Positions 13,543 to 46,056 of a DNA stretch of 64,000 nucleotides are shown in pieces; position 1 is the stretch's first letter, and each line of letters begins with the position of its first letter. This DNA is from Candidatus Aenigmatarchaeota archaeon (lineage in GTDB: Archaea > Aenigmatarchaeota > Aenigmatarchaeia > CG10238-14 > SpSt-28): positions 44,159-108,158 of the forward strand of contig JAWAZZ010000001.1 of NCBI GenBank assembly GCA_038997305.1. The letters run 5' to 3'. Both the position numbers and the translations under genes were made by a program. The notes under the pieces are model-generated. The model was not told the origin of the DNA and searched no databases. It saw only the letters and a program-made list of their open reading frames with translations.

Positions 13543-13558
13543 TTTTTTGTTTTTGATG
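13543..13558 (+). terminator. T-rich putative archaeal terminator after the 23S rRNA
   Basis: aattttttgtttttga oligo-T runs lie immediately downstream of the processing stem. Confidence 0.3.
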
Positions 13559-13571
13559 AAGTATTTATTTT

Positions 13572-15994: not shown

Positions 15995-16007
15995 AAAATA
16001 TATTCTT

Positions 16008-31651: not shown

Positions 31652-31688
31652 TATGGATAAATATTTATTGTTAAACAAAATAATAATT

Positions 31689-34600
31689 ATGAATGGAAAA
31701 TTCTTAAATGTAATACTATTTTTAATTTTCTTTTTGAGTTTTGGTATAGTTTATTCTGAAAATTATGTTTTAAGTCTTAAAAAGGGATGGAACTTGATTT
31801 CGATACCCTTAGCTCCATCTAATATAGAGTCTGTAAAATGTGATATATCTTCTATTTGGTCATATGAAAACGGTAAATGGAAAAAATTGAGTAATATTAA
31901 TCAGTTAGTTCCTGGTAAAGGTTATTGGATATATGTTAGAAGTGCTACATGCGATATCGTTATCTATGGAGATAGAATAAATTATAATCCAATAGAAAAA
32001 TTAAGTAAAGGATGGAATTTAGTTGGTATTGGTTCTAATGAAATATATGTTAAAGATTTAAAAAATGTTTGTAAAAATATTACTAGAATTTGGAGTTATG
32101 AAAATGGCAGATGGATAAAATTAAATGATGATGATAAATTAATTCCTGGTAAAGGATATTGGATATATAGTAGAGATGAATGTGATTTAGGAAGAAGCAA
32201 GTTTGTAGGTTCTTCTAGTTGTCAATGTTATGATAATCTTAAAATAAATCCGGATAAAACTACATTTTCTCCTGGAGAAACTATAAATTTCGAAAGTGTT
32301 TGTGGTGATCAAGGAAATCTTATAACAATAGTTTTGAAAGATCCTAGTGGTAGTCAAAAAGCATCTGCATATTCTACTTGTCCTAGTCCAACTAGTAAAG
32401 CAAGCGGTAGTTATACATTTAAATCTACTGATCCTGCAGGAACTTGGAAATTAATAATGGATGTGAGTGGAGTTACTTGTGAGCATTGTGAAAAAGAAAT
32501 AACATTGCAAGGAACACAACAACAATGTAGTGTATCAGTATCTAATATAAATATTCAACAAACAAATACACCTACTTGTGGTCAATCAGCAACACTTTCA
32601 GTATCTATATCTGGTACAGCAACAAATTGCCAATCTTTAAAAGCAGAAATTTATGAAGATCAAACTTTATTAAAAACAATATCATGTAGCATTTCGAATA
32701 ATAATTTACAATGTTCTGACACATTAACTTTAACAGTCTCTTCTAATAATCAAGAAGCAGACTTTGATATAGTAATTAAAGATAGTAATAACAATGAAAA
32801 GGCTAGAAGTCCTAAGAGAATTACATTACAATGTCAATCACAACAACAATGTCAAGTAACTTTAAATTCGTTATCTCTAAATCCATCATCCACGAACCAA
32901 TGTGGTCAATTAATTCCATTAACTATAACTGTTAGTTATTCAGCTAGTGGAAATTGTCAAAACAAATATATTACAGTTTATGATCATGATAATAATGTTT
33001 TAGGTTATATTCCAATAGATACTTCTAAAACAAGTGGCTCATTAAATTTAAATACTTACAACGTTCCTTCAAAAAGTGATAAATATTTAATTTGGGCCTT
33101 AGCAGAAGGTTCCTCACAACAAGTTTCTGCATATTTAGATGTTCAATGTCAATCACAACAACAATGTCAAGTAACTCTTAATTCATTATCTCTAAGTGAA
33201 TCAACAGCACAATGCAATCAACAAATTTCATCATTAACAGCAACTGTTAGTTATTCAGCTAGTGGAAATTGTCAAAATCAAAACATAATAGTTTATAAAC
33301 CAGATGGAAGTGTTTTGTGCAATATTCCAATAGATACTTCCAAAAATAGCAATTCATGTTCAGCTAGTTATACTGCTCCATCGCAAAGTGGTATACATAC
33401 ATTCAAAGCTGTTTATGGAACTCAAGAAAAAACAGCAAGTTTAAATGTTCAATGTCAAAGTCAAGAAACTAAAATAGAAGTTTCTATAACTGCAGATAAA
33501 ACAACTTCTTATGTTAGAGACAAAATTAAAATAAGAGCAACTGCAAGATTCACCAATCTAAAAGAAACAGGAACATATGAGTTGTGGATATGTAGAGAAG
33601 GGTTATCATATTGTTTAGCATCTGCTGCAAAGGTTTGCACAGATTCAAATTGTCTTAGAGAATTAGAGCAAAACGGTCTAACAAAAGAATATGAAGCTAC
33701 TTCAGATTGTAGCGGAAGTTATAAATATTATGCAAAAGTTTATTTAGGAACTGATAAAGAACTTGCCAAGAGTAATCCAATAGAAGTTAATTTTAAGCTT
33801 CATGAAGGTTTAAAGATAGATGAATTAAAAGTTGAACCTCCAAAAGCAGATTCAGAGCAAAAAATAATAATAACTTTAAACCCAGATACATATAGAATAC
33901 TAAATGAATATTATTGTGAAGGATGTAAAGGTTTTAATACAGGTGATTATTTTGTATCAGTACCAGAATATTATGATCCTAATGGAAATAAAGTACAACT
34001 TTTGATACCAGCTTGTAACGAAAATGATATAAGACAAAACAATGGTAAGTGTGTAATAGATAAGTATTTTAGTGGTAGTCCACTTAAACTGTTTAATAAA
34101 CCAGGAACATATAAAGTAAGGGCAGTTTTAATGAGAGAGTGTGTAAGAGATGCTACTACTACAGAAAAGTTGACCGAAGGTTGGTTTACTGTAACAATTT
34201 CTTCACAAAATTGTGTTGTTAACATCTCTGAGGTTAAAGTTGAAAAAGTAGATTCTAATATACCAAATTGTGGCCAAACTATAAATTTGAAATTCACGGT
34301 TAATGGAAAGCATACTTCTTGTTCTAGTAGCGATATCGCTGCAATAATTTACGAAGGTTCTAGTGAGATTGGAAAATTACAATGTAATGTAAATAATGAT
34401 GGTACATTTAGATGCGAAGGACAACTTCAATATAAGATAATAGTTTCAGGAACCAAAACATTCAAAGCAAAAGTTCTTGATAAAGAAAAAGAGAGTAATC
34501 AAATAGATTTATCTTGTCAACAACAGCAACAACAATGTACATCTGGTCAAACAAAATGCGAAAATAACAAATTATACGAATGTGTTAATGGACAATGGCA

Positions 34601-35339
34601 AGACAAAACTCCTTCGTGTCCACAGGGTCAACAGTTTGTATGTGTAGATCAAACGCGTGGAGAATGTAGACAACAGCAACAACAATGTCAATTAAAATCT
34701 GTAAATATAGAAAGTGTTAGACAATTAACAAAATGTGATGGGACAAAAGTTAGATACGAAGTAACTGTTTTTACAGATTATGAAAATTGCGAACAAATGC
34801 CTAAGGTAACTCTAGAATATGGAAGAAAAGATCAATTAAGACCTTCTAAAACACAACAACCAAAATCTGTTAGTAATGATGGAAAGAGAGCTATTTTTGA
34901 GGTAGAAATTAGTGGAGTTAGACATGGAACGCAGGTTTTCTTTAGAGCAACTGCTGAAATTTCTGGTCAACAGAAATCTACTGTCGATGAAGAAAGAACT
35001 GTAAATTGTTATGTAGAAGAAGATACATATAAATGTATTGTCGATAACAACAGGGTAAAAATAGTAGCTTCTAACAACCAAGTTATATGGGAAAAAGAAA
35101 ATACACAGACCATTTCATACTATTGTAAAAAAGAGAGTATAAGTGCTAGAAAAGGTATAACATCTAGTGATGGTGATTTTGAAGATTTCTTGAATGCTTT
35201 AGTTGGAGCAAGAAAAGTTTTTACTTGCAGTTTTTCAAACGGAAGGATAGAATGTAATATTGGTAATTTAAATGTGAGAGGTAGCACTGTTTGTATTCTA
35301 GTAGACAATAATAATGCTATATGTAAAACAGTTAGTTAA
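31689..35339 (+). CDS. giant secreted Cys-rich modular surface protein (2 GWN repeats, four ~104-aa Ig-like tandem repeats, Gln-runs, Cys6 knot repeat)
   Basis: Signal peptide MNGKFLNVILFLIFFLSFGIVYS with start at ATG 31689 (31653 is also possible). It contains the modules listed separately below. Confidence 0.65.
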   Translation: MNGKFLNVILFLIFFLSFGIVYSENYVLSLKKGWNLISIPLAPSNIESVKCDISSIWSYENGKWKKLSNINQLVPGKGYWIYVRSATCDIVIYGDRINYNPIEKLSKGWNLVGIGSNEIYVKDLKNVCKNITRIWSYENGRWIKLNDDDKLIPGKGYWIYSRDECDLGRSKFVGSSSCQCYDNLKINPDKTTFSPGETINFESVCGDQGNLITIVLKDPSGSQKASAYSTCPSPTSKASGSYTFKSTDPAGTWKLIMDVSGVTCEHCEKEITLQGTQQQCSVSVSNINIQQTNTPTCGQSATLSVSISGTATNCQSLKAEIYEDQTLLKTISCSISNNNLQCSDTLTLTVSSNNQEADFDIVIKDSNNNEKARSPKRITLQCQSQQQCQVTLNSLSLNPSSTNQCGQLIPLTITVSYSASGNCQNKYITVYDHDNNVLGYIPIDTSKTSGSLNLNTYNVPSKSDKYLIWALAEGSSQQVSAYLDVQCQSQQQCQVTLNSLSLSESTAQCNQQISSLTATVSYSASGNCQNQNIIVYKPDGSVLCNIPIDTSKNSNSCSASYTAPSQSGIHTFKAVYGTQEKTASLNVQCQSQETKIEVSITADKTTSYVRDKIKIRATARFTNLKETGTYELWICREGLSYCLASAAKVCTDSNCLRELEQNGLTKEYEATSDCSGSYKYYAKVYLGTDKELAKSNPIEVNFKLHEGLKIDELKVEPPKADSEQKIIITLNPDTYRILNEYYCEGCKGFNTGDYFVSVPEYYDPNGNKVQLLIPACNENDIRQNNGKCVIDKYFSGSPLKLFNKPGTYKVRAVLMRECVRDATTTEKLTEGWFTVTISSQNCVVNISEVKVEKVDSNIPNCGQTINLKFTVNGKHTSCSSSDIAAIIYEGSSEIGKLQCNVNNDGTFRCEGQLQYKIIVSGTKTFKAKVLDKEKESNQIDLSCQQQQQQCTSGQTKCENNKLYECVNGQWQDKTPSCPQGQQFVCVDQTRGECRQQQQQCQLKSVNIESVRQLTKCDGTKVRYEVTVFTDYENCEQMPKVTLEYGRKDQLRPSKTQQPKSVSNDGKRAIFEVEISGVRHGTQVFFRATAEISGQQKSTVDEERTVNCYVEEDTYKCIVDNNRVKIVASNNQVIWEKENTQTISYYCKKESISARKGITSSDGDFEDFLNALVGARKVFTCSFSNGRIECNIGNLNVRGSTVCILVDNNNAICKTVS
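31775..32195 (+). repeat. tandem pair of ~62-aa GWNL-W.YENGKW-GKGYW.Y modules (coding); about 95% nt-identical to 41530..41862 over ~335 nt
   Basis: LKKGWNLISIPLAP...IWSYENGKWKKL...GKGYWIYVRSATCDI and LSKGWNLVGIG...IWSYENGRWIKL...GKGYWIYSRDECDL. The nucleotide comparison was done by eye. Confidence 0.7.
32510..33760 (+). repeat. four tandem ~310-nt (~104-aa) coding repeats, each beginning QCQSQQQCQV / QQQCSV
   Basis: Repeat starts near 32516, 32829, 33144 and 33449, with conserved ends and variable middles. The TVSYSASGNCQN core recurs. Confidence 0.6.
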
Positions 35340-35379
35340 TCAAAAAATATATATGAGGTATAAGATATTATAATTTATT

Positions 35380-36087
35380 ATGTTGAACATCAGAGGCTTA
35401 AAAGGTTTTACTGCGATAGAAATTGTCTTTCTAATTTTTATTTTAATAGTTGTCGTGTTAGTTGTAATTCAAATGATTACTAGATATGTTAATCCAGGAA
35501 AAATTAATCCTTATATTGAAAATATAGAAGAATTAGCGAAAAAGGATTATATGAGGCAATATTGTGATAATTTGTGCAATTCTATTAAAACTGCTACTAG
35601 TGAAAGAGAAAGATTGTTTGCAATGGCAAGATGGTGTATGGAAAATATAAAAGACAGAGGAAAAGATTATATAGATATAATTGAAGATGGAGTAAAAGGA
35701 TTTTATGTTATTGGTGGTTTACCTTATTGTGAAGCTGGCACATATTGTTTTCATTTCTTCTCTTGCGATGTAGGAATAACTTTGGATTTAAAGGAATGTA
35801 GGAGAATTCTTTGCGAATATTATACTCAACAATTGGGAGATACAAAAAAGGCTAGCGAGGCTATAGTAAATATCATAAACTGGGGAAAATGTAATGTCAA
35901 CAAAGAACAATTATCTGGTAAACCATTGCTTTACTCAAGCGCTAGATGGTGGTATGATAAATATTTTAACATAACAGATGAAAATGGCGAACTCAAAGAT
36001 TTTTGTAGCGTTCTCATAGCTGGTGGAGATATAGAGGGAATAGTTAGCGAAGGTGAAGAGGAAGGCTCTCCTCCAATGCCATCATAA
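35380..36087 (+). CDS. type IV pilin-like protein (class III signal peptide) with Cys-rich globular domain
   Basis: MLNIRGLKG|FTAIEIVFLIFILIVVVLVVIQ has the canonical prepilin cleavage motif (Gly-1, Phe+1, Glu+5, then a ~20-aa hydrophobic helix). A ~190-aa domain with about 10 Cys follows. Confidence 0.55.
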   Translation: MLNIRGLKGFTAIEIVFLIFILIVVVLVVIQMITRYVNPGKINPYIENIEELAKKDYMRQYCDNLCNSIKTATSERERLFAMARWCMENIKDRGKDYIDIIEDGVKGFYVIGGLPYCEAGTYCFHFFSCDVGITLDLKECRRILCEYYTQQLGDTKKASEAIVNIINWGKCNVNKEQLSGKPLLYSSARWWYDKYFNITDENGELKDFCSVLIAGGDIEGIVSEGEEEGSPPMPS

Positions 36088-36154
36088 TCATAGAAGAAAA
36101 AATGAAACCTTTTAATGAATTTATTTATTATTTTCTAAATATAATTATTTTAAA

Positions 36155-38380
36155 ATGGTGAAATTAATAAACTTACAAAAATCAAAAATATTTTTCCTTC
36201 TTACCATTCTAATATTTAATCTGTTTGTTTTCTCTTATTCTTTTTCTCAAGAAGGTTTAACTATAACATTGAAAAAAGGATGGAATCTAATTTCTTTACC
36301 AGCTGAAGATATAAAAATTAAAAATACAAATTGTGACATTAGGTCGATATGGGCATATGAAAACGGCAAATGGAATAAGTTATCTTCTTTGGAAAATTTG
36401 AGAGTTGGAAAAGGTTATTGGGTATATGTAAGAAACGATTGTGAAATTAATTTTGAAGGAAGTTTTGTAATTGGAACAACATTAGAAAACATAACAAAAG
36501 GATGGAATTTAGTTGGTGTTAATTCTGAAATCTTTGTAAGTAGATTAAAAGAGATATGTCCTACAGTAAGAACTGTATGGTCATATGAAAATGGTAAATG
36601 GATAAAATTAAAAGATGATGATAAATTAGTTCCTAATAAGGGATATTGGGTATATTCAAACGGATATTGTGATGTTAGAAAATCTTCCTTAGAAAAAATT
36701 ACAAGGGAGGTTTCTCCCAAATTATCTCAAGTCGTTATGCAGGATCTACAGAATACAAATAAAATTGCTTCTATTCCAGCTATTCTTTTGTTGGTTCCTG
36801 ATGTTGTGGATCAGCTTAATACAGAAGTCTCAGTAGTATTAATATCTAGAATGATTTTCAAAATACCTTATGATGCATTTCCTTTAACACTTAAAGTCAA
36901 AAATTATAGAGGTTTTGATATTTGTGAAAGAAATATAAGAAGCTTTGATGAACTTTTTAGAATTTTTGGCTTAGATATAATAAATGTTTGTTCTTTCATA
37001 GTAAAAGATCAATCATATGAAGGTGCTTATGAATTGTTTGTATTTGATAGGAGCAACAACTTAATATTTAATGTAAAGTCTATTTCAGAACTAAAAATAG
37101 GTAAAGAAACAACTTATCCAACAGAAGAATGTAAGATATCTTATTTTGTAGTGAATTCAACAACTATCGATTGTAAGAGTGATAAACATCCTATAATTAT
37201 TAAATTTAATGCTAGCAAGGAATGCGTAGGAAAGGAAGTTAGAATACAGATCATACCAGAAGCAAGACTAATAGGTCCATTGTCAAAAGGTGTTATTATT
37301 AGGAGTTTTAATAAATCATTTGAAGTTTGCAAATTTAAGATAGAAAAAGTTGGAGAAAATACGGTAAGATGTGAAATTAATGTTTCTGCTTTGAAAGAGC
37401 ATCTAAAAGGAGAGATAGATGAAAAAATGTTAGGAGAGGCATATGTACTAGTAAGGGCAGATTATGAAGGATTAGGTAATTACAGATATATAGGAAGGGT
37501 AGGTATATTACCTGAATGTTTCAAAACAAGTAATTGTGAGGTATCTATAAAGGGAAAGGTTGTAAATGCAGATGTGAGAAATTGTGGTGATTTGACTAAA
37601 TTGGACTTTTATGTAGATATGTCTGTGAGATATAAACAGGGGGAGCGAGACTCTTGCCCAAACAAATATGAAATTTATATATTAGATTCGGGTGAAGTTT
37701 GGAATAATGTTGGTAAAGGTGAAATAGATCTTGGAGATTTGCAGCCAACTCCACCACTAGAAGAAAATGGTTATGAAAGTCTGTTCGGAAGTCTAACTAT
37801 ACCTGCTAAGACTATTGTAACATACAATGGTCAGAAAAAAGAATTTATGATAGTGGTTGTTGGAGTCTTTGAAAATGAAAGAGGAATGCCAAAGAAAGTC
37901 ATATTGGCTAACACAACATTAACGTATTTTGCTGAATGTTTAAAATGTAGAGTAAAAGAAGCAAAATTAAGTTTAGATCCAAGTGAAATAACAACTTGTC
38001 CATTTAAAGTAAAAGCTAAAATTGAGGCAGAAGTTGAGAATTGTTGGAAAGATTCAGTGATTGTTGCAAGAGTATATAAACTTGACAAATTTATGCATTC
38101 AATAGATGATAAATTAGAGGTTTGTAAAGCGACAAAAACATTGTCAGATCTCGAATCAAATCCACCATCATTACCAGAAGATAAGACACCACCTTCTGTG
38201 AGTGGAAAAGTAACACTATCTTGCGAATTTTATGTTAAGACAGAAGCAGATAGTGGATATTATTTTGCCATAACAGGTAATGGAGTATCTAATTTAGCAT
38301 TCTTAAATGTAACCTGTGAAAACATAAGAAGAAGACCAATAGTTCCAGAACCTCTTTCTACAGTATTGAATATAAGATAG
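36155..38380 (+). CDS. large secreted surface protein with two N-terminal GWNL repeats
   Basis: Signal peptide MVKLINLQKSKIFFLLTILIFNLFVFSYSFS. Repeats LKKGWNLISLPAED...IWAYENGKWNKL...GKGYWVYVRNDCEI and ITKGWNLVGVN...VWSYENGKWIKL...NKGYWVYSNGYCDV. Confidence 0.6.
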   Translation: MVKLINLQKSKIFFLLTILIFNLFVFSYSFSQEGLTITLKKGWNLISLPAEDIKIKNTNCDIRSIWAYENGKWNKLSSLENLRVGKGYWVYVRNDCEINFEGSFVIGTTLENITKGWNLVGVNSEIFVSRLKEICPTVRTVWSYENGKWIKLKDDDKLVPNKGYWVYSNGYCDVRKSSLEKITREVSPKLSQVVMQDLQNTNKIASIPAILLLVPDVVDQLNTEVSVVLISRMIFKIPYDAFPLTLKVKNYRGFDICERNIRSFDELFRIFGLDIINVCSFIVKDQSYEGAYELFVFDRSNNLIFNVKSISELKIGKETTYPTEECKISYFVVNSTTIDCKSDKHPIIIKFNASKECVGKEVRIQIIPEARLIGPLSKGVIIRSFNKSFEVCKFKIEKVGENTVRCEINVSALKEHLKGEIDEKMLGEAYVLVRADYEGLGNYRYIGRVGILPECFKTSNCEVSIKGKVVNADVRNCGDLTKLDFYVDMSVRYKQGERDSCPNKYEIYILDSGEVWNNVGKGEIDLGDLQPTPPLEENGYESLFGSLTIPAKTIVTYNGQKKEFMIVVVGVFENERGMPKKVILANTTLTYFAECLKCRVKEAKLSLDPSEITTCPFKVKAKIEAEVENCWKDSVIVARVYKLDKFMHSIDDKLEVCKATKTLSDLESNPPSLPEDKTPPSVSGKVTLSCEFYVKTEADSGYYFAITGNGVSNLAFLNVTCENIRRRPIVPEPLSTVLNIR
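36265..36680 (+). repeat. tandem pair of GWNL aromatic repeat modules (coding)
   Basis: See the 36155..38380 translation. Confidence 0.65.
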
Positions 38381-38417
38381 ATAAAATCGAATTTAATATA
38401 CACACAAAATAATATTT

Positions 38418-40652
38418 ATGAGGAGAGTATTTTTTGTTTTTTTAGCTTTATTTTTAGTATTTTCATTATCAAATTTTTCTTATTCTTCGGAATGCGCAGC
38501 ATACTTGCTTAATTCTTGTGAATTTTCAGATAGGTATGAGTGCAGTTCTGTAAGTTTAGTCAGCGAAAGCGGCTTAGAATATAGAAGACATTACATAAGT
38601 GATAAAGATATAGCCCCTATTTCAATTGCTATAGATAGATATGGAAATGCTTGGATAGGAACAAAGGAAAATGAAATAGTTAAAATAAATTTTGATTGCA
38701 AAAATAATATAGATTCTGACGGTGATGGAAAAGTGAGTATTAGTGAAATGAATGACATAAAAGACGATAAGTGTATAGAGCTAAGATTAAAACTTCCTTG
38801 TAAAAAAATTAATTCTGTTTGCATCGATTTTATTAATGATTTTTTGTATGCTGGATGTTATGATTCAAAACTATTTTATAGAATATCTTTAGATGGCGAA
38901 ATTTTAAAAAGTTGGAAATTAGATTATGGACCTTTTAATTGTGTTGTAGACGATGCATCTAATGTTTGGATTTCTACATTGTCAAAAAACTTAATAGAAA
39001 TAAACTTTGAATCAGATAAACCAGAATATTATAAAGTTAGTGACAAAACATATAGTATTTCTAAATGTAAAGATAAAGATTGTCTAATAATAACTTCTGA
39101 AGAAAGTGGCAAAGTATTAATATTTAACACATCATCTAAAAAGGTAACTTTAGAGAGGAAAATTTCTTCTTATGCAATTTCTTCCATTTCTGATGATAAT
39201 TTTATTTATTTGTTGGATAGCAAAGAGGGGAAAATATACAGGCTCGATTTTAATTTAAACATATTGAATAATTTAGATATATGTAAATGGCCAATATCTG
39301 TTTCTATTGATTCTTGTAATAATGTTTGGATTATTTGTAGCGAGGAGTTATTAATATTATCTAAAGATTTTTCGAAAATAAACAAATATTCTATATCTTC
39401 TTCCAGGTTTTTTATTTCTGATTTTACTGGGTATTATTCTAATGCAAATATAAGAATAGAGCAAAAAAGTTTGCAAAAATTCAGAGATAACGATGGCAAA
39501 TGCGAAATAGATAAGGGAGAAAATTGTGCAACATCTCCTAATGATTGTAGTTGCGGAAATGGTAAAATTTGTTGTATTAACGATCCAAAAAAAGATGAAA
39601 GGGGTTGTACAAACAGAAAAGCTAAAGAAGGAGAAGAATGTTATTGTAGCTCTCAATGTTTAGATAATCTGAATTGCAATCCGGTAGCTCCAAATTTCAA
39701 TAAATATAGTAGAGCTTGTTGCCCTGCCGGAAAAGTTTGGAATGGAACACATTGCACAGAAAGCGATTTACTTAGTTTTTGTCCTAAAGATACTAACTGT
39801 AAATCTTTTTGGCCGAACAAGCAAGGAAAATTATTATCTATAAACGAAGAAAATTATGCTTGTGATTTATTTGAAGTTTGTCATCCATATGTTCAAAGTA
39901 TAGCAAGAGAAGCCTTTGAATGTTGTTCAAAGGAGTGCAATTCTAATTGTCACTCTTATTGTAAAGAAGCTTTAGAATATTCTGGTTATAACAAAGAAAA
40001 AACTTATGAAAGATTAAAGTTTTGTATGGGACTATACATAACTTCTGGATTTGGCCCAGCAAAAAGATTTATGATAGGTTATAATGATGCTGAAATTTGT
40101 TGTGGAGCGAAATATTTTCCAGATAATAATATTAGAGATGTTTTAGAAGGTGTTTGTAAATCTGCTTATGGGGATAGTTTTATTGGCAAATGCGAACCTA
40201 AAATAGAAAATACTGGTCTAAAAGATTTAGAATGTAAAGAAGCAGTAAGTAAATATCCTTTGGGATGGAAAAGCGATAATAATATGAAAGAAAATAGCTG
40301 TATATTCTCTGATTTGCCTGCTCATGTTACTCTAAACTTTATAAAAACTGGAATATGTGTAGATTATTCTGTTGCGTTAACTTCTGCATTAAGAGCTGCT
40401 GGGTATTCTTCGAATGAAGTTTATACTGTTGTGGCACCTGGACATGCTTATAATTTAGTTCTATTTCCTCTAAATGAAAAATATACTATAGTAGATACTA
40501 CTGCCAATTATCCAAATAATTGGCGTCCGGGTCAGCAGCCAGGAAAGTATAACTTTGGAAATATTATGAAAAGTAGATGTGAATACGAGCAATGTATGAA
40601 TGATAATGGTATATTAACTTGTCCACCCAAAAATTTAGTTTATGGTTGCTAA
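38418..40652 (+). CDS. secreted beta-propeller-like + Cys-rich + C-terminal transglutaminase-like (Cys-His-Asp) domain protein
   Basis: Signal peptide MRRVFFVFLALFLVFSLSNFSYS. The N-terminal half is homologous to the middle of 16008..17798, including the EF-hand loop DSDGDGKVSISEM. The Cys module GEECYCSSQCLDNLNCNPV...ACCPAGKVWNGTHC is shared with the metzincin. The C-terminal triad is GICVDYS ... GHAYNLV ... IVDTT. Confidence 0.65.
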   Translation: MRRVFFVFLALFLVFSLSNFSYSSECAAYLLNSCEFSDRYECSSVSLVSESGLEYRRHYISDKDIAPISIAIDRYGNAWIGTKENEIVKINFDCKNNIDSDGDGKVSISEMNDIKDDKCIELRLKLPCKKINSVCIDFINDFLYAGCYDSKLFYRISLDGEILKSWKLDYGPFNCVVDDASNVWISTLSKNLIEINFESDKPEYYKVSDKTYSISKCKDKDCLIITSEESGKVLIFNTSSKKVTLERKISSYAISSISDDNFIYLLDSKEGKIYRLDFNLNILNNLDICKWPISVSIDSCNNVWIICSEELLILSKDFSKINKYSISSSRFFISDFTGYYSNANIRIEQKSLQKFRDNDGKCEIDKGENCATSPNDCSCGNGKICCINDPKKDERGCTNRKAKEGEECYCSSQCLDNLNCNPVAPNFNKYSRACCPAGKVWNGTHCTESDLLSFCPKDTNCKSFWPNKQGKLLSINEENYACDLFEVCHPYVQSIAREAFECCSKECNSNCHSYCKEALEYSGYNKEKTYERLKFCMGLYITSGFGPAKRFMIGYNDAEICCGAKYFPDNNIRDVLEGVCKSAYGDSFIGKCEPKIENTGLKDLECKEAVSKYPLGWKSDNNMKENSCIFSDLPAHVTLNFIKTGICVDYSVALTSALRAAGYSSNEVYTVVAPGHAYNLVLFPLNEKYTIVDTTANYPNNWRPGQQPGKYNFGNIMKSRCEYEQCMNDNGILTCPPKNLVYGC

Positions 40653-41322
40653 AACGTTTTTATTTATCTTTTTGCTATTGATTTTTTCTAGCTTTGTTTA
40701 TTCTTGTATAAATGTTAATAAGACTTCTAATGTAACTATAGCAAAAACTAACGAAGCAATTGAAATTAAAATATTTATAGAAAACAAATGTGAAAAAGAT
40801 AAAGAGATTACAATTGTTGAGGACGTTTTTGGTGACGTTATTTATCCTAGAGAAAATTTAGTCTTTTACAATACTTCCGAAAAAGTTTTTATTTGGAGAT
40901 CTCCTCAATTGATTTGGAAAAATATTAACTTGGAGGCAAATCAGAAAATAAGCATTAGCTACGTAATTTATTTTGATACAGTAGATAAATTTGTAATTCC
41001 TCCTACAAAGGTTTTAGATGAAAGCGGTAATGTTTATAACTCTAATTCCATTGAAATAAAAATTGAATGTAATAGGAATGGGATGTGTGAAAAAATGTAT
41101 GCAGAGAATTATGTAAATTGTCCAGAGGATTGTAAAGTAAGTAGTGAAGATGGTATTTGTAGTGGGTATGTTAATGATCCTGACTGTAAGACTCAAATAA
41201 AAACAGAAGAGAAAAAGGAAGAAAATTTTTTATTCTACGTTTTCGTAATATCTTTAATTGTTTTATCTGTTTTGCTTGTGTTATACAGATTTGTTATAAG
41301 AAAAACTTTAACTAAATCTTAA
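40642..41322 (+). CDS. secreted protein with C-terminal TM anchor
   Basis: Signal peptide MVAKTFLFIFLLLIFSSFVYS and C-terminal TM FLFYVFVISLIVLSVLLVLYRFVI. Overlaps the upstream gene by 11 nt. Confidence 0.5.
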   Translation: MVAKTFLFIFLLLIFSSFVYSCINVNKTSNVTIAKTNEAIEIKIFIENKCEKDKEITIVEDVFGDVIYPRENLVFYNTSEKVFIWRSPQLIWKNINLEANQKISISYVIYFDTVDKFVIPPTKVLDESGNVYNSNSIEIKIECNRNGMCEKMYAENYVNCPEDCKVSSEDGICSGYVNDPDCKTQIKTEEKKEENFLFYVFVISLIVLSVLLVLYRFVIRKTLTKS

Positions 41323-41357
41323 AATTTTAATAATCGGGTTTTTATAAATTATTATTT

Positions 41358-43775
41358 ATGGCGAGAAAAATTCATTACTTCTTATTCCTTATTTATTTTC
41401 TATTTTTAATTACTAGTGTTGGATTATCAGATAGTTACTCTTTAGAGCTTAAAAAAGGATGGAACCTAATTTCTTTACCACTAAAAAATATAAAAGTTGA
41501 AAACGTGGAGTGTGAAATTAAATCTATTTGGTCATATGAAAACGGCAAATGGAAAAAATTGAGTAATATTAATCAGTTAGTTTCTGGTAAAGGATATTGG
41601 ATTTATGTTAGAAGTGCTACATGTGATATTGTTATCTATGGAGATAAAATAAATTATAATCCAATAGAAAAATTAAGTAAAGGATGGAATTTAGTTGGAA
41701 TAGGTTCTAATGAAATATATGTTAAAGACTTAAAAAATGTTTGTAAAAATATTACTAGAATTTGGGGTTATGAAAACGGCAAATGGATAAAATTAAATGA
41801 TGAAGATAAATTAGTTCCTGGTAAAGGATATTGGATATATAGTAGAGATGAATGTGATTTGCAGCAAACATCTCAAAATGAAAAATTATGTAAAATAGAG
41901 TCTGTTTCTACAAGTATAAATGAGATAAATGATTGCGATAAAGAGCAGAATATAAGACTCGTAGTTAAATTAAGTGGAGATTGTAGCAATAATATAGTTA
42001 AAATTAAAGAAATAAATCAAAATATCGAATGCAAAATTGATAAAGATGAATGTAATATAGTAATAAATAATCCTAAACAATATGATGGCAAAACTTTGAA
42101 TTTTAGGGTTTATCTTGATGATAAAGATCTGAATACAGAAATAAAAATAACTGTAAAATGTAATAAGGAGTCTCAAGTTTGTAAATCTGGTCAAACAAAA
42201 TGTGAAAATAACAAATTGTACGAATGTGTTAATGGACAATGGCAAGATAAAACTCCTTCATGTCCACAAGATCAACAGTTTGTATGTCTAGATCAAGCTC
42301 GCGGAGAATGTAAAGCCTGTGAGTTTGGTCAAACAAAATGTGAAAATAATAAGATGTATGTTTGTGTAGATGGCAAATGGAAAGAAATATCTCCACCTTG
42401 TACAATTGGAGAAAATTTTGTTTGTATAAATGATAAGCAAGGTGAATGCAAACCTATAGAAACATGTCAGTCTGGACAAATAAAATGTGAAGGTAACAAA
42501 TTCCTCATTTGTATTGATAATAAGTGGATGGGTACATATGTTCCACCATGTCCAGTTTATACTAATATTGAAGTTCCTAGATTCGAGTGTGTAAATAATA
42601 TGACGGGAGTCTGTAAACCTTCAGAATCATCTTATAGAGTTACTGATTTTGAGGTCAAATGTATAAAAGAAATAAATAAGATTTTTTTGGTTAGAAAAGA
42701 TAATGGAGCTTATATAGAGATTTATCCTCAATGTCCAAGTGGTTATTCATTTGTTTGTATTAATGATAGAGATGGAAAATGTGTTCTAAGCGATGCTTCC
42801 CAAATATGTAAAAATAGTGAAACAAAATGTGAAAATGATGAACTTTTCGTTTGTGCTGGAAATAGATGGACTAAGGTAACATTTCCTTGTGATGAATGCG
42901 AATATTTTGTTTGCAAAAACGATAAAACAGGAACTTGTGCTAAGCTAACTACTAAATGTCTTAACAATAAGAATATTTTGTTGAAATGTGTAGGAGGAGA
43001 AAAATATTGGTGGGAAAAAGTCAATATAACATGCGAAAACAATCAGAAATTTGTTTGTACAAATTATACTAGTGGAGAATGCCTTAAGATGAAGGACACC
43101 AAAATAACTATAGAAGTTTTAGATAATGGTGGAGATCCATATTATGGTATTTTAAGGATTGTTGTTAATAAATTGTTAACTCCGAAAGAATTTTGGGAAA
43201 ATATTAGGAGAGAAGAAGATACATTTTTAGTTGGGAAAGGTGAAAAGATAGAGTTCGAAATTTCAGATTTTCTGAAATTCGCTGATATTGCTATAAATTC
43301 GGAACATACATGGACTATAAAAGTTACAGATCCTTTCGGAAACGTTAAAGTTTGTAAAGTTAATAAAGATTTGAGATGTAGAATAGGATATGAACCTGCT
43401 GATGAAATTATACTTGAAGTATTAGATGTAGAACTTCCAAAGGACTTGAAAAATGTAGATCCTTATTCTGTTAGAGAACAGTTTTACATATATCTGATAG
43501 ATGATTGGATTATAAATAAGTATAATACTAAATATGAAAGTTATCTTAAATGTATGACATCATATTTATCTAAGGGTGAAACTTATAGATGTAAGCTTTA
43601 TGGGAGTCCTTATTATGGTGTTAGAATAACTACGTATGCTGTTAGGTTAAACTGGGTAGTAAGAGTTACAGATCCTTTTGGAAACGTTAAAGTTTGTAAA
43701 ATAAATTATAAAAACAGTTGTGAAATAAATCTCAATCCTTTATATGAGATATTTAAAAATTTAAGAGAAAAATAG
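41358..43775 (+). CDS. giant secreted Cys-rich modular surface protein (2 GWNL repeats, about five ~45-aa Cys6 repeats, C-terminal duplicated VTDPFGNVKVCK module)
   Basis: Signal peptide MARKIHYFLFLIYFLFLITSVGLS. Repeats as listed below. The C-terminus carries WTIKVTDPFGNVKVCKVNKDLRC and VVRVTDPFGNVKVCKINYKNSC. Confidence 0.65.
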   Translation: MARKIHYFLFLIYFLFLITSVGLSDSYSLELKKGWNLISLPLKNIKVENVECEIKSIWSYENGKWKKLSNINQLVSGKGYWIYVRSATCDIVIYGDKINYNPIEKLSKGWNLVGIGSNEIYVKDLKNVCKNITRIWGYENGKWIKLNDEDKLVPGKGYWIYSRDECDLQQTSQNEKLCKIESVSTSINEINDCDKEQNIRLVVKLSGDCSNNIVKIKEINQNIECKIDKDECNIVINNPKQYDGKTLNFRVYLDDKDLNTEIKITVKCNKESQVCKSGQTKCENNKLYECVNGQWQDKTPSCPQDQQFVCLDQARGECKACEFGQTKCENNKMYVCVDGKWKEISPPCTIGENFVCINDKQGECKPIETCQSGQIKCEGNKFLICIDNKWMGTYVPPCPVYTNIEVPRFECVNNMTGVCKPSESSYRVTDFEVKCIKEINKIFLVRKDNGAYIEIYPQCPSGYSFVCINDRDGKCVLSDASQICKNSETKCENDELFVCAGNRWTKVTFPCDECEYFVCKNDKTGTCAKLTTKCLNNKNILLKCVGGEKYWWEKVNITCENNQKFVCTNYTSGECLKMKDTKITIEVLDNGGDPYYGILRIVVNKLLTPKEFWENIRREEDTFLVGKGEKIEFEISDFLKFADIAINSEHTWTIKVTDPFGNVKVCKVNKDLRCRIGYEPADEIILEVLDVELPKDLKNVDPYSVREQFYIYLIDDWIINKYNTKYESYLKCMTSYLSKGETYRCKLYGSPYYGVRITTYAVRLNWVVRVTDPFGNVKVCKINYKNSCEINLNPLYEIFKNLREK
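41445..41862 (+). repeat. tandem pair of GWNL aromatic repeat modules (coding)
   Basis: LKKGWNLISLPLKN...IWSYENGKWKKL...GKGYWIYVRSATCDI and LSKGWNLVGIG...IWGYENGKWIKL...GKGYWIYSRDECDL. Confidence 0.7.
42180..43090 (+). repeat. array of ~45-aa Cys6 repeats, C..GQTKCENNK.Y.C..G.W......C.....FVC......GEC (coding)
   Basis: About 5 copies. The first copy is about 92% nt-identical to 34537..34680 in the other giant gene, compared by eye. Confidence 0.6.
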
Positions 43776-43781: not shown

Positions 43782-44237
43782 TTATCTTTTACTTCTTTGT
43801 TTATGTCTTCTAGATCCTCTACTACTTGCACCTTTTCCACTAGAATGATGTGGCTCATTCATTCTATAATCTCTTTTTAATAACCAAGGATCGAAAGAGT
43901 GGAATAATTCTTCTAATTTTTTATTTCTTACTATTCTCAATAAGGCTTTGGCAATTGCTTGTCTAATTGCATCTGCTTGACTTACTAATCCACCACCCTT
44001 AACATTAACTTTTATTTCATATTTTGGTAATATGTCTTTTATATAATCTTCGCTAATCATAAAAACTTCTCTTATTCTCCATCTTAGAGTTTCTGTCCCC
44101 CAAACATTTAATGGGTATGAATTAATTCTAATTTTTAGTTCAGAATTCTCTCTCTCTTTTAACTTAAAAGTTACTCTTGCAACAGCTGTTTTTCTCTTCC
44201 CAACTTCATGAACTATTTTTGGTAATTTTGTTACCAT
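43782..44237 (-). CDS. rps9: 30S ribosomal protein S9 (uS9)
   Basis: VHEVGKRKTAVARV, KGGGLVSQADAIRQAIAKAL, and an Arg/Lys-rich tail ending SKR. Confidence 0.9.
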   Translation of the reverse strand: MVTKLPKIVHEVGKRKTAVARVTFKLKERENSELKIRINSYPLNVWGTETLRWRIREVFMISEDYIKDILPKYEIKVNVKGGGLVSQADAIRQAIAKALLRIVRNKKLEELFHSFDPWLLKRDYRMNEPHHSSGKGASSRGSRRHKQRSKR

Positions 44238-44659
44238 CTTTTCTTAGCTCCTATAGCTAATGCTATTTCTTCTAAAGTCATATATCCAACTTTAACTAAA
44301 TCATTAGCTGTTTTTACTTTTACATCCATAATTTTATCTTTATATTCTTCTGGTAAACCATAAAAAATTTTCAAATTTTTTAGTGCAACTTTTCCTCTAT
44401 ATGTTTTATATGGTAGCATTCCTCTAACCATTCTTCTAAAAATTTCATCCGGATATCTTGGATAGAAAGGACCTTTATATGGATCTCCCCTTTCTCTTCT
44501 CTTCTTAAATTCTTCTATAATATCTTCTCTATCTCCACTAATAACGGCCTTTTCTACATTAACAACGATAACCTTATTACCTTTCAACAATTCTTTAGCA
44601 ACAAAACTAGCTAATCTTCCAGCGATTTTATTAGTTGCGTCTATAACTATCTCTTTCAT
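44231..44659 (-). CDS. rpl13: 50S ribosomal protein L13 (uL13)
   Basis: VIDATNKIAGRLASFVAKELLKGNKVIVVNVEKAVISG. Confidence 0.9.
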   Translation of the reverse strand: MKEIVIDATNKIAGRLASFVAKELLKGNKVIVVNVEKAVISGDREDIIEEFKKRRERGDPYKGPFYPRYPDEIFRRMVRGMLPYKTYRGKVALKNLKIFYGLPEEYKDKIMDVKVKTANDLVKVGYMTLEEIALAIGAKKRW

Positions 44660-45021
44660 ATTATAATTCTTACATTACTTCCTTTAGGATTTTTTTCTAC
44701 TAACTCTTTTATGCTCATAATTTCTATACCAGATTTCTCTAATTTTAGTTTTGCTGCTTTTGAAAATCTCCATGCAGCTATTTTTATTTTTTTAGTTACA
44801 TTTCCAACACTCAAAACCTTTCCTGGAACCAAAACAATTTCTCCATCTTTAGCATATCTATCTATTTTATATAAATTAACTTCTACTCTTTTTCTTGTTG
44901 GTTTGCTTAATAGTTCAGCTACATATTTCCAAATCTTTGCTTTATTCTTTTTGCTAGCTTTTTCTAAGTAAACTATTAATTTCCTCAAGTATGGATTTGT
45001 AGGACCAGTAGGTTTTACCAT
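44656..45021 (-). CDS. rpl18e: 50S ribosomal protein L18e (eL18)
   Basis: PTNPYLRKLIVYL...IWKYVAELLSKPTRKRVEVNLYKI...VPGKVLSVG. This is the canonical L18e-L13-S9 gene order. Confidence 0.85.
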   Translation of the reverse strand: MVKPTGPTNPYLRKLIVYLEKASKKNKAKIWKYVAELLSKPTRKRVEVNLYKIDRYAKDGEIVLVPGKVLSVGNVTKKIKIAAWRFSKAAKLKLEKSGIEIMSIKELVEKNPKGSNVRIII

Positions 45022-45111: not shown

Positions 45112-46056
45112 ATGGTAAAGATAAAACTGGATATATGGAAGATATCCACTTTCGTTTTGTTAGTTGCGCTGATTATAACTCTGTACTATAGTAATTTTTC
45201 ATCTAGCTTAGGTTTTTTTGCATTAAAGAACAATCAAAATGCCAATGAAATAGGTAAAAAGGTTATAGATTATATTAATAAAAATTTAGTTCAACCTGGA
45301 ACATCAGCAAGTTTAAAGGATGTAAAGTTTGATTCTTCTTTGGGACTATATGTTGTTACCACAGAATATCAAGGCAATGAAATTCCTGTATATGTTTCTC
45401 CTAATGGAAACTTTTTAATTCTAGGTAGTGTATTAGATATGAGTAAGCAGTTAAATTTGGCTTCTCAATCTCAACAACAAATTCCAAAGTCTGATAGACC
45501 AAAAGTAGAACTATACATATTTTCATATTGTCCGTATGGAGTGCAGGCTCAATCTGCGTTTATAGAGGTAGCCAAAGCAATGAAGGATTATGCCGACTTT
45601 TATGTGAGATTCTTTAGTCATATGCATGGAGAGTTTGAAAGGCAACAAAACATGATTCAAGAGTGTATAATTAGAATGTATCCTCAGAAATATTGGGATT
45701 ATGCAAAAATCTTTGTCGAAGAGATTTATAATAAGTGCTATGGGAATGTGACGTGTGATAAAGAAGAAAGTATTAAAGCTATGCAAAGAGTAGGAATAAA
45801 TGCTACAGAAATATTAAATTGTGTACAAACAAAGGGTAGCGAATATTATAACGAAGATATTAAGCTTGCAGAAAATTTAGGATTAACTGGTTCACCATCA
45901 TTTGTAATAAATGGAGTATATGTTAGTAATGTTGTAAGAACCCCAGATGGGATTAAAAATGTAGTTTGTCAAGCATTTAATAATCCACCAGCAATTTGTA
46001 ATCAAACATTAGGTTCGAGTTCATCAGTTTCTACAGCACCAGCGGGAAGTTGTTAA
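45112..46056 (+). CDS. membrane-anchored thioredoxin-fold thiol:disulfide oxidoreductase (DsbA-like)
   Basis: N-terminal TM. CPYG active site in YIFSYCPYGVQAQSAF. C-terminal GLTGSPSFVINGVYV resembles the DsbA cis-Pro region. The track start is TTG, so I moved it to the ATG. Confidence 0.55.
   Translation: MVKIKLDIWKISTFVLLVALIITLYYSNFSSSLGFFALKNNQNANEIGKKVIDYINKNLVQPGTSASLKDVKFDSSLGLYVVTTEYQGNEIPVYVSPNGNFLILGSVLDMSKQLNLASQSQQQIPKSDRPKVELYIFSYCPYGVQAQSAFIEVAKAMKDYADFYVRFFSHMHGEFERQQNMIQECIIRMYPQKYWDYAKIFVEEIYNKCYGNVTCDKEESIKAMQRVGINATEILNCVQTKGSEYYNEDIKLAENLGLTGSPSFVINGVYVSNVVRTPDGIKNVVCQAFNNPPAICNQTLGSSSSVSTAPAGSC

What the first reader, a model, noticed from the sequence alone, without database searches (positions are those of the whole stretch)
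45112..46056. Membrane-anchored DsbA-like oxidoreductase immediately beside the Cys-rich island
Seen in sequence: a CPYG thioredoxin-fold active site and a DsbA-like C-terminal GSPSFVING segment behind an N-terminal TM helix. Established knowledge: archaea that oxidise extracytoplasmic cysteines use DsbA or VKOR-type catalysts. With hundreds of cysteines exported from the adjacent genes, a dedicated oxidase here is functionally coherent; that is inference.
Basis: partly seen in the sequence, partly recalled or inferred. Interest (0 to 1): 0.5.

Follow-up and report, generated by a model that had tools for sequence, protein, structure and literature searches.

The report
DsbA/GILT-like ectoenzyme with split active site
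The gene does encode a membrane-anchored DsbA-like protein facing outside the cell, but it has one active-site cysteine (CPYG, not CxxC) plus an invariant cysteine at the very end of a floppy tail, a layout shared by a large uncharacterised family in ultra-small archaea and bacteria.

Summary

Gly143 takes the place of the second cysteine and is invariant in about 250 relatives. Three cysteine pairs look structural (C185-C237, C209-C215, C286-C296). That leaves two invariant cysteines: C140, and C314 at the extreme C-terminus of a Ser/Gly/Ala/Thr-rich tail.

My best reading is a thiol-disulfide exchange catalyst whose redox pair is split between the active site and a swinging C-terminal arm. 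It is a core gene of DPANN archaea and Patescibacteria (at least 564 species genomes), not an enzyme dedicated to the Cys-rich island. Three ribosomal protein genes separate it from the island, and the linkage is lineage-specific.

No DsbB, VKOR or CcdA lies within about 78 kb. In relatives, a BdbC-type DsbB is adjacent in four loci and a glutaredoxin in eleven. Whether it acts as an oxidase or an isomerase is unresolved. Verdict: a new variant of a known kind, of moderate to high interest.

The parts
45112..46056 (+). Whole gene, 314 codons plus stop: membrane-anchored GILT/DsbA-fold protein
   Evidence: ORF list and sequence. Identical NCBI protein and 104 homologues at E<=1e-3. AF2 model mean pLDDT 89.2.
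45133..45207 (+). N-terminal transmembrane anchor (residues 8-32), N-terminus inside
   Evidence: Helix 8-32 in the AF2 model. Positive-inside bias in 90 of 99 homologues.
45241..45459 (+). DsbC_N-like alpha/beta domain (residues ~44-116), a probable dimerisation module
   Evidence: The isolated domain scores 26.6 bits against Pfam DsbC_N (cutoff 25), and 15 of 30 family members hit it. Weak PDB profile hits to a Helicobacter Dsb isomerase (8pxd) and H. influenzae DsbC. The same module is fused to canonical CPHC/CGYC thioredoxins in P0102 and P0105.
45493..46011 (+). Thioredoxin domain with four-helix insertion (residues ~128-300), GILT/DsbA/VSR-TRX type
45529..45540 (+). CPYG motif (C140-P141-Y142-G143): a single nucleophilic cysteine, with Gly in place of the resolving cysteine
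   Evidence: C, P and G are invariant in 82 aligned homologues and in about 250 family proteins as CP[YFA]G. The motif aligns to the CPHC of V. cholerae DsbA.
45625..45666 (+). GILT-signature-like segment H172-G173-x2-E176-x3-N180-x4-C185
   Evidence: Matches the published GILT signature CQHGX2ECX2NX4C in register (PMC7017176). Family conservation: H 99%, G 98%, E 100%, N 66%, C 87%.
45889..45915 (+). GSPSFVING: cis-proline loop (S261-P262) and following strand (N267)
   Evidence: S261, P262 and N267 are invariant. The segment aligns to the G-x-P-x-x-V-x-N segment of DsbA and BdbD.
45967..45999 (+). C286-x9-C296 C-terminal extension, a probable structural disulfide
   Evidence: Both cysteines are invariant. 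The segment aligns to the VSR1 segment CSGFQESTEPAIC, whose two cysteines (C393, C405) form a disulfide in the crystal structure.
46000..46053 (+). Flexible tail (residues 297-314) ending in the invariant terminal Cys314 (codon 46051-46053)
   Evidence: pLDDT is about 46-54 beyond residue 300. The tail is 14-30 residues long, 68% S/G/A/T, and ends [SAT]-[GA]-[SGQN]-C plus 0-2 residues. 242 of 249 family proteins carry both CPxG and a terminal Cys.

Best explanation
The gene encodes a membrane-anchored, probably dimeric protein that catalyses thiol-disulfide exchange on the outer face of the membrane. Its catalytic domain belongs to the GILT/DsbA branch of the thioredoxin fold.

Shown:
- Only one cysteine (Cys140, in CPYG) sits at the N-terminus of helix alpha-1, where DsbA has its exposed nucleophilic cysteine. 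The buried resolving cysteine is replaced by an invariant glycine.
- Six of the eight cysteines behave as three structural pairs.
- The remaining cysteine, Cys314, is invariant and always lies within the last three residues, at the end of a low-complexity tail of at least 14 residues that AlphaFold leaves disordered.

Inferred:
- Cys140 and Cys314 form the redox pair. Cys140 attacks substrate or partner disulfides, and the tail cysteine swings in to resolve the mixed disulfide, or carries a disulfide or electrons to and from a partner.
- The protein serves the whole exported cysteine-rich proteome as a disulfide donor or shuffler. It is not a dedicated enzyme for the neighbouring island.
- Where a BdbC-type DsbB is encoded next to it (in relatives), that DsbB probably recycles it. 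The partner in this genome is unknown.
For: - Fold and topology.
- C140/P141/G143, S261/P262 and C314 are invariant across a family with 1284 representatives (50%-identity clusters) at E<=1e-30.
- C140 aligns to the first cysteine and G143 to the second cysteine of the DsbA CPHC.
- C185 and C237 are lost together. C209 pairs with a nearby cysteine whose position shifts with it. C286-C296 matches the crystallographic C393-C405 disulfide of VSR1, and the paper's alpha1-alpha4 and alpha2-alpha3 disulfides match the other two pairs. This leaves C140 and C314 as the odd pair.
- The tail is never shorter than 14 residues and its end is disordered in two AF2 models.
- CPxG domains are fused to genuine CxxC thioredoxin or DsbA domains in multi-domain relatives.
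- A DsbB gene (PF02600, 48.9 bits) lies divergently adjacent, 90-137 nt away, in three Aenigmarchaeota genomes. It lies 456 nt away in a Pacearchaeota-like contig and 3.3 kb away in a Woesearchaeota contig.
- A glutaredoxin gene (PF00462) is adjacent in 11 of 83 loci, in both archaea and Patescibacteria.
Against: - No coordinates were available, so the C140-C314 distance was never measured. AlphaFold does not dock the tail end.
- In tandem proteins with two CPxG domains there is only one terminal cysteine (P0106). The terminal cysteine is therefore a per-protein feature, not a per-domain one.
- DsbB adjacency is rare. Of 79 DsbB loci, 4 have a CPxG gene adjacent, against 23 with a canonical CxxC DsbA.
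- No DsbB, VKOR, CcdA, glutaredoxin or thioredoxin reductase lies in the window plus about 14 kb of flank.
- The direction of catalysis is ambiguous. DsbB neighbours point to oxidation. The DsbC_N-like domain and the Grx/TrxR/CcdA-like neighbours point to isomerase or reductive feeding.
Confidence: 0.5

Rival explanations
1. One reading: a DsbA-type oxidase dedicated to the neighbouring Cys-rich island, recycled by a DsbB/VKOR partner elsewhere in the genome.
For: DsbA-like fold, outward-facing topology and 240 exported cysteines nearby. The same arrangement (island, ribosomal protein genes, this gene) occurs in the closest relative, L001. DsbB is adjacent in some relatives.
Against: There is no CxxC. 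In more distant relatives the gene lies between rpS7 and EF-2, beside EF1-beta/DUF655, or among unrelated genes with no Cys-rich neighbours. It occurs in at least 564 species genomes as a core gene. No partner lies within about 78 kb.
Confidence: 0.12
2. A DsbC/DsbG-like isomerase or thiol protector kept reduced from the cytoplasm. Cys140 shuffles wrong disulfides or reduces sulfenylated cysteines. Cys314 is the escape cysteine or the point of electron entry from a CcdA-like/exported thioredoxin relay.
For: DsbC_N-like N-terminal domain. CPYG is one residue from the CPYC of DsbG and glutaredoxins (from knowledge). A single N-terminal cysteine suffices for isomerisation in PDI CxxS mutants (from knowledge). 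Glutaredoxin is adjacent in 11 of 83 loci, thioredoxin reductase lies within 0.7-4.6 kb in 7, and an exported Trx(CPHC)+CcdA-like protein lies within 1.2-4.4 kb in 6.
Against: The adjacent glutaredoxin has no signal peptide and no shown route across the membrane. Trx and TrxR are housekeeping genes in small genomes, so proximity may be chance. DsbB adjacency in other lineages points the other way. Dimeric DsbG-like architectures can be oxidases (Helicobacter; from knowledge).
Confidence: 0.25
3. The terminal cysteine is an attachment point (a lipid, a cell-wall or S-layer link, or an intermolecular disulfide) rather than a redox partner. Cys140 works alone, for example by forming long-lived mixed disulfides for retention or quality control, as ERp44 does.
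For: There is one terminal cysteine per protein even when there are two CPxG domains. It is always within the last three residues and preceded by small residues. Lgt (PF01790) lies immediately downstream in 7 Patescibacteria loci.
Against: The protein already has an N-terminal anchor. There is no hydrophobic segment or known sorting signal at the C-terminus. Archaea are not known to have Lgt (from knowledge). The Lgt adjacency may be synteny within a single clade.
Confidence: 0.08
4. A non-catalytic binding module that merely keeps the fold, as has been suggested for the plant VSR1 TRX domain.
For: The best sequence-profile match among solved structures is the VSR1 TRX domain, whose catalytic status is unknown.
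Against: The catalytic-position cysteine, the following proline, the cis-proline loop and the terminal cysteine are strictly invariant over a very large, divergent family.
Confidence: 0.05

Closest known systems
Bacillus subtilis BdbD/BdbC (membrane-anchored DsbA-like oxidase with its DsbB-type partner)
   Different: BdbD has a CxxC; here the motif is CPxG plus a terminal cysteine. This protein also has an extra DsbC_N-like domain and a GILT-type signature. DsbB adjacency is the exception: 4 of 79 DsbB loci.
[quoted passage not shown]
   Different: GILT is a eukaryotic, soluble lysosomal protein with a CxxC. The window protein itself scores below the Pfam threshold (16.3 against 22.4 bits). 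Three of the eight signature positions differ, including two of its cysteines.
TRX domain of plant vacuolar sorting receptor VSR1 (PF25011; 8r4y, 9b1r)
   Same: Best sequence-profile hit among solved structures (E 5e-13), including the C-terminal C-x(9-11)-C extension. The placement of the helical-bundle disulfides is the same.
   Different: VSR1 has CxxxC at the active-site position and sits within a PA-TRX-EGF receptor. No catalytic activity has been shown for it.
DsbC/DsbG and dimeric Helicobacter-type Dsb proteins
   Same: An N-terminal DsbC_N-like domain followed by a linker and a thioredoxin domain with a helical insert.
   Different: Those proteins are soluble and carry a CxxC. Dimerisation of this protein was not tested.
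Enzymes with a redox-active cysteine on a flexible C-terminal arm: Deinococcus FrnE (a DsbA-like protein with a C-terminal CxxxxC tail), Erv2p (CGC tail), high-Mr thioredoxin reductase (GCUG end), typical 2-Cys peroxiredoxins
   Same: The concept of a mobile C-terminal cysteine that exchanges with a fixed active-site cysteine. FrnE also appears among the fold and sequence hits.
   Different: This is a resemblance by mechanism, recalled from knowledge, not homology of the tails. All of those enzymes keep a complete dithiol (or flavin) centre in the core, whereas here the core has only one cysteine.

Membership tests
Thioredoxin-fold, DsbA-like superfamily | beta-alpha-beta / beta-beta-alpha thioredoxin core with a helical domain inserted after beta-2 | tested here: met
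Thioredoxin-fold, DsbA-like superfamily | Conserved cis-proline loop facing the active site | tested here: met
   S261-P262 is invariant and aligns to the G-x-P of DsbA and BdbD. The cis conformation itself was not inspected.
DsbA/BdbD oxidases | CxxC redox-active disulfide at the N-terminus of helix alpha-1 | tested here: not met
   The motif is C-P-Y-G, and Gly143 is invariant in the family.
DsbA/BdbD oxidases | Pfam DSBA (PF01323) score above the gathering threshold | tested here: inconclusive
   26.6 bits against a cutoff of 25.6, covering only residues 198-271. Homologues score 31-36 bits.
DsbA/BdbD oxidases | A DsbB or VKOR recycling partner in the same genome | tested here: inconclusive
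   None in the window plus about 14 kb of flank. DsbB is adjacent in relatives L045, L087, L088 and L109.
DsbA/BdbD oxidases | Oxidase activity or a strongly oxidising redox potential | not testable with these tools
   Needs biochemistry.
GILT (PF03227) | Pfam GILT score above the gathering threshold | tested here: not met
   The window protein scores 16.3 bits against 22.4. Several homologues do pass (25.4-34.5 bits).
GILT (PF03227) | Signature CQHGX2ECX2NX4C | tested here: inconclusive
   Five of eight positions are kept in register (H172, G173, E176, N180, C185). The first two positions and the middle cysteine differ.
GILT (PF03227) | CxxC (or CxxS) active site | tested here: not met
   CPxG.
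GILT (PF03227) | GILT-like three-dimensional structure | tested here: met
DsbC/DsbG isomerases | N-terminal dimerisation domain (PF10411) | tested here: met
   The isolated domain scores 26.6 bits against a cutoff of 25, and 15 of 30 members hit it. The match is marginal, and actual dimerisation was not tested.
DsbC/DsbG isomerases | CxxC active site kept reduced by DsbD/CcdA | tested here: not met
   There is no CxxC and no CcdA/DsbD in the window. CcdA-like genes lie 1.2-4.4 kb away in 6 of 83 related loci.

The most novel reading that the evidence does not exclude
DPANN archaea and Patescibacteria, the ultra-small symbiotic lineages of both domains, share a previously undescribed class of oxidative-folding catalyst. 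It is a prokaryotic GILT/VSR-TRX relative in which the classical CxxC has been split into a fixed nucleophilic cysteine (CPxG) and a swinging C-terminal cysteine. The arm would let one protein both accept oxidising (or reducing) equivalents from different partners (DsbB, an exported thioredoxin, or possibly peroxide or oxygen through a sulfenic acid on Cys140) and resolve mixed disulfides with substrates that carry dozens of cysteines. The family would also be the prokaryotic root of eukaryotic GILT and of the plant VSR TRX domain.
Probability: 0.25. Interest if true: 0.8.

Novelty: new variant of a known kind. Interest (0 to 1): 0.6.

Why it matters
How DPANN archaea and Patescibacteria fold their large, cysteine-rich surface proteins is largely unexplored. 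Here eight neighbouring exported ORFs carry 240 cysteines. Six full-text searches of the held library found no paper on the CPxG motif, on this family, or on DsbA-type proteins in these lineages.

This gene gives a concrete and very widespread candidate, with an unusual and easily testable chemistry: one active-site cysteine plus one terminal cysteine. It also links eukaryotic GILT and the plant VSR TRX domain to a large prokaryotic family by sequence and by structure. That link bears on the origin of those eukaryotic proteins.

In practice, automatic annotation calls these proteins 'hypothetical', 'DsbA family', 'glutaredoxin' or 'protein-disulfide isomerase'. None of these labels captures the missing second cysteine.

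Tried and rejected
- I tested whether each CPxG domain has its own tail cysteine, which would have been strong support for pairing. It does not hold: tandem proteins such as P0106 have two CPxG domains and one terminal cysteine.
- I assumed that DPANN and CPR organisms lack DsbB. This was wrong: DsbB homologues are common there.
- I asked AlphaFold whether the tail docks. In the window protein the tail beyond residue 300 is disordered. In a long-tail homologue residues 301-310 are confident (pLDDT 93) but the last ten, with the cysteine, are below 50. No coordinates are returned, so no distances could be measured.
- The afdb50 fold library was not available.
- The sigma-70 promoter and terminator scan is uninformative for an archaeon.
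- A search for paralogues, for the N-terminal module, or for an exported CxxC thioredoxin in the window found none.
- tblastn of glutaredoxin, TrxR, CcdA-like and DsbB queries against the window and its two extensions found nothing.
- Pfam scans of the island ORFs gave no family above threshold.
- I considered selenocysteine at the fourth motif position and rejected it. The codon is GGA, and Gly is invariant.
- I considered a peroxiredoxin- or GPx-type active site and did not pursue it. The motif aligns to the DsbA CPHC, with the cysteine in the first position.
Full report
THE OBSERVATION

The window carries one long ORF at 45112-46056 on the + strand. It starts at an ATG; an in-frame TTG at 45097 would add five residues. 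The 314-aa product is 100% identical to an NCBI protein named 'MAG: hypothetical protein QW197_00465 [Candidatus Aenigmatarchaeota archaeon]'. It has 104 further homologues at E<=1e-3 in the 90%-clustered protein collection.

The window is archaeal and very AT-rich, about 27% G+C, with an archaeal 23S rRNA at 10479-13504.

CPYG is at residues 140-143 (nt 45529-45540) and GSPSFVING at residues 260-268 (nt 45889-45915). An N-terminal hydrophobic helix spans residues 8-32.

The neighbouring 'Cys-rich island' is also real. Eight ORFs between 27004 and 43775 begin with signal or anchor sequences and hold 29+14+58+10+22+49+8+50 = 240 cysteines. The ribosomal proteins and transporters around them have 0-1.

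Two details are off.
- The motif is C-P-Y-G, so there is one cysteine, not a CxxC.
- The gene is not immediately beside the island. Three minus-strand genes (43782-45021) lie between. In the syntenic locus L001 two of them hit Ribosomal_S9 and Ribosomal_L13.

WHAT THE PROTEIN IS

An AlphaFold2 model built on 82 homologues is confident (mean pLDDT 89.2). The exceptions are the first residues, the inter-domain linkers and the last ~14 residues.

Foldseek gives the same picture.

By sequence profile against PDB chains, the best hit is the VSR1 TRX domain (E 5e-13), followed by BdbD (2e-6) and V. cholerae DsbA (6e-6).

Pfam places the window protein only marginally in DSBA: 26.6 bits against a cutoff of 25.6, covering residues 198-271. 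Homologues pass the thresholds of VSR_TRX (43-47 bits), DSBA (31-36), GILT (25-34) and Thioredoxin_4.

Residues 172-185 (H-G-x2-E-x3-N-x4-C) match the published GILT signature CQHGX2ECX2NX4C in register (PMC7017176). In the family H is 99% conserved, G 98% and E 100%.

The segment between the anchor and the catalytic domain (residues ~44-116), scanned on its own, passes the Pfam DsbC_N threshold: 26.6 bits against 25. Fifteen of 30 family members hit that model. There are weak PDB hits to a Helicobacter Dsb isomerase and to H. influenzae DsbC. The same N-terminal module is fused to ordinary CPHC or CGYC thioredoxins in two other metagenomic proteins.

TOPOLOGY

Of 99 full-length homologues, 98 have an N-terminal hydrophobic segment. 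The 15 residues before it carry 3.6 Lys+Arg on average, against 1.1 after it. Ninety homologues follow the positive-inside rule and three go against it. The catalytic domain is therefore outside the cell.

THE UNUSUAL PART

In an alignment of 82 homologues the invariant residues are C140, P141, G143, E176, S261, P262, N267, R276, C286, C296 and C314.

Every one of about 250 family proteins retrieved has C-[PA]-x-G at the active-site position (CP[YFA]G in nearly all); none has CxxC. The profile alignment to V. cholerae DsbA puts C140 on the first (exposed, nucleophilic) cysteine and G143 on the second (buried, resolving) cysteine of CPHC.

The other cysteines sort into pairs.
- C185 and C237 are present or absent together.
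- C209 pairs with C215, or with a cysteine at a shifted nearby position.
- C286 and C296 are always present.

The VSR1 crystal structure has disulfides between helices alpha1-alpha4 and alpha2-alpha3 of the bundle, plus C393-C405 in the segment that aligns to C286-C296.

That leaves C140 and C314. C314 is the last residue. Across the family, 242 of 249 proteins carry both the CPxG motif and a cysteine within the final three residues. That cysteine is preceded by [SAT]-[GA]-[SGQN] and lies at the end of a tail that is 68% Ser/Gly/Ala/Thr with almost no charged residues. The distance from the penultimate cysteine is 14-30 residues, never shorter, with modes at 15 and at 25-30.

AlphaFold leaves the tail end disordered in both the window protein and a long-tail homologue.

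According to a survey of the thioredoxin fold class, 'Cxxc' sites are a minority, and the replacement for the second cysteine is usually Ser or Thr (PMC2757866). A Gly replacement combined with a terminal cysteine was not found in any of six literature searches.

DISTRIBUTION AND CONTEXT

A profile search of 1.84 billion representatives found 6868 proteins at E<=1e-3 and 1284 at E<=1e-30.

The best 80 carry 56 archaeal record titles and 24 bacterial ones.
- Archaeal: Aenigmat-, Pace-, Woese-, Nano-, Iain-, Micr- and Altiarchaeota, plus some Methanomicrobiales MAGs.
- Bacterial: mostly Patescibacteria, namely Parcubacteria, Saccharibacteria, Moranii-, Falkow- and Nealsonbacteria.

The neighbourhood is not conserved.
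- The closest relative (59% identity) has the same order: island, S9-L13-L18e, then this gene. Its island is much smaller.
- Another lineage has the gene between rpS7 and EF-2.
- Another has it beside EF1-beta and DUF655.
- Others have it among unrelated genes, none with Cys-rich neighbours.

The gene therefore behaves as a core housekeeping gene, not as part of the island.

THE SEARCH FOR A PARTNER

Within the window, no protein with four or more predicted TM segments has a CxxC or more than two cysteines. Pfam names those membrane proteins as permeases, TerC, SpoIIM and FtsX. tblastn with DsbB, CcdA-like, glutaredoxin and TrxR queries finds nothing in the window, nor in 9.1 kb and 4.6 kb of extra flank taken from related assemblies. 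The rest of the genome could not be read.

I clustered all ORFs from 83 related loci. The only neighbour shared across both domains is a small glutaredoxin (PF00462, 71-74 bits, CPYC or CPFC, no signal peptide). It is immediately adjacent on the same strand in 11 loci, upstream in archaea and downstream in Patescibacteria. Further neighbours:
- thioredoxin reductase lies within 0.7-4.6 kb in 7 loci;
- thioredoxin lies nearby in 6 loci;
- an exported Trx(CPHC) fused to, or next to, a CcdA-like membrane protein lies nearby in 6 loci.

A scan for membrane proteins with CxxC then turned up a BdbC-type DsbB (PF02600, 48.9 bits, 'PCNLCWYQRI', four invariant cysteines). It is divergently adjacent to the gene in L045. 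The same divergent pair, 90 nt apart, occurs in two further Aenigmarchaeota genomes whose DsbB proteins are 80% and 60% identical. There the neighbour is confirmed to have CPYG and a terminal GSC. A Pacearchaeota-like metagenome contig has the pair 456 nt apart. A Woesearchaeota locus has DsbB 3.3 kb away.

DsbB homologues are common in DPANN archaea and Patescibacteria.

The reciprocal test is sobering. Of 79 DsbB loci, the adjacent gene is:
- a canonical anchored CxxC DsbA in 23;
- a small exported CSHC thioredoxin in 9;
- a CPxG protein in 4.

Multi-domain relatives fuse CPxG domains to genuine CxxC thioredoxin or DsbA domains. This argues for functional coupling with dithiol redoxins.

HOW IT MOST LIKELY WORKS

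Shown:
- an outward-facing, anchored GILT/DsbA-fold domain;
- a single invariant cysteine in the nucleophile position;
- an invariant cis-proline loop;
- three probable structural disulfides;
- an invariant terminal cysteine on a flexible tail.

Inferred: Cys140 is the catalytic thiolate. It forms mixed disulfides with substrates or partners. Cys314 is its second cysteine, delivered by a swinging arm, possibly from the other subunit of a dimer. It resolves those intermediates or shuttles a disulfide or electrons to a partner such as DsbB or an exported thioredoxin.

The direction is not settled.
- DsbB adjacency in three DPANN phyla, the DsbA/BdbD similarity and the anchor favour an oxidase-type role.
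- The DsbC_N-like domain and the Grx/TrxR/CcdA-like neighbours favour an isomerase or reductively fed role.

I put about 0.5 on the split-pair catalyst as such. Within the full set of explanations I give about 0.25 to the isomerase/reductive version as a separate rival.

The main counter-evidence to pairing is that tandem proteins have two CPxG domains but one terminal cysteine. This keeps alive the idea that the terminal cysteine is an attachment or interaction point. Lgt lying immediately downstream in seven Patescibacteria loci is noted, but it may be synteny within a single clade.

COMPARISON WITH WHAT IS KNOWN

It works most like a DsbA/BdbD or DsbC-type catalyst. Structurally it is closest to GILT and to the VSR TRX domain.

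It is not a member of the DsbA, GILT or DsbC families as functionally defined, because the defining CxxC was tested and is absent. It is a member of the DsbA-like thioredoxin superfamily by fold.

The swinging-arm idea has precedents in FrnE, Erv2p, thioredoxin reductase and 2-Cys peroxiredoxins. These are recalled from knowledge and are analogies of mechanism only.

VERDICT

The gene is an ordinary-looking DsbA-like ORF. On inspection it belongs to a very large, uncharacterised and chemically unusual family shared by DPANN archaea and Patescibacteria. Novelty: a new variant of a known kind. Interest: 0.6.

Noticed in passing
window 27004-43775: Eight exported Cys-rich ORFs, none with a Pfam family. 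The ORFs at 31614, 36155 and 41358 share an N-terminal 'LKKGWNLISLP' motif, and 31851-32188 is 95.6% identical to 41523-41860. The ORF at 35380-36087 starts 'MLNIRGLKGFTAIEIVF', which looks like a class III (type IV pilin-like) signal peptide. The same genomic slot in relative L001 holds a 1271-aa protein with 64 cysteines and a pilin-like 229-aa protein.
   Followed up: partly
window 10479-13504: A complete archaeal 23S rRNA with no 16S rRNA gene anywhere in the window, so the rRNA genes are unlinked. Its G+C is about 0.53 against about 0.27 for the rest of the window, a contrast typical of thermophiles with AT-rich genomes.
   Followed up: no
window 13550-13903 / 15987-16339 and 14533-14931 / 17368-17766: Two long near-identical direct repeats (98.3% and 100%) connect the ORFs 13572-14963 and 15951-17798. 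These are recently duplicated or recombining paralogous genes. The second is a 615-aa exported protein with 18 cysteines and weak beta-propeller hits.
   Followed up: no
L019:117-3176, L033:78-3071, L002:7326-10447: Several Aenigmarchaeota carry a compact cluster 3-4 kb from the CPxG gene: a LUD-domain/4Fe-4S protein, an exported thioredoxin (CPHC) with a CcdA-like membrane protein ('NPC'/'IPC' motifs), and a CCG-domain (HdrB/LutA-like) protein. It looks like a transmembrane thiol-redox relay wired to a heterodisulfide-reductase-like module. It is not present in the window.
   Followed up: partly
L023:5648-5905, L033:5655-5912, L056:4762-4998, L073:5115-5342 and seven more loci: A small glutaredoxin gene (75-91 aa, CPYC or CPFC, no signal peptide) is immediately adjacent to the CPxG gene on the same strand in 11 of 83 loci. 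It lies upstream in archaea and downstream in Patescibacteria. How a cytoplasmic redoxin would connect to an extracytoplasmic enzyme is unexplained.
   Followed up: partly
L036, L038, L039, L061, L068, L081 (and L008): Prolipoprotein diacylglyceryl transferase (Lgt, PF01790, 249 bits), an enzyme that modifies cysteine thiols, lies immediately downstream of the CPxG gene in seven loci. This may be synteny within a single clade, or a hint about the fate of the terminal cysteine.
   Followed up: no
P0141, P0193, P0210-P0213, P0228, P0233, P0248 (proteins): Multi-domain relatives have the order: CPxG domain, a small 4-6-cysteine knot, a thioredoxin-like CxxC domain ('NDKxCxxCDTS'), a second CPxG domain, then the tail cysteine. 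A GILT-like domain followed by a small Cys knot parallels the TRX-EGF order of plant vacuolar sorting receptors.
   Followed up: no
L092-L171 (DsbB loci from metagenomes): BdbC-type DsbB genes of uncultured lineages are most often next to an anchored canonical DsbA ('FQCPYC', 23 of 79 loci) or a small exported 'CSHC' thioredoxin-like protein (9 of 79). DsbB is much more common in DPANN archaea and Patescibacteria than I had assumed.
   Followed up: partly
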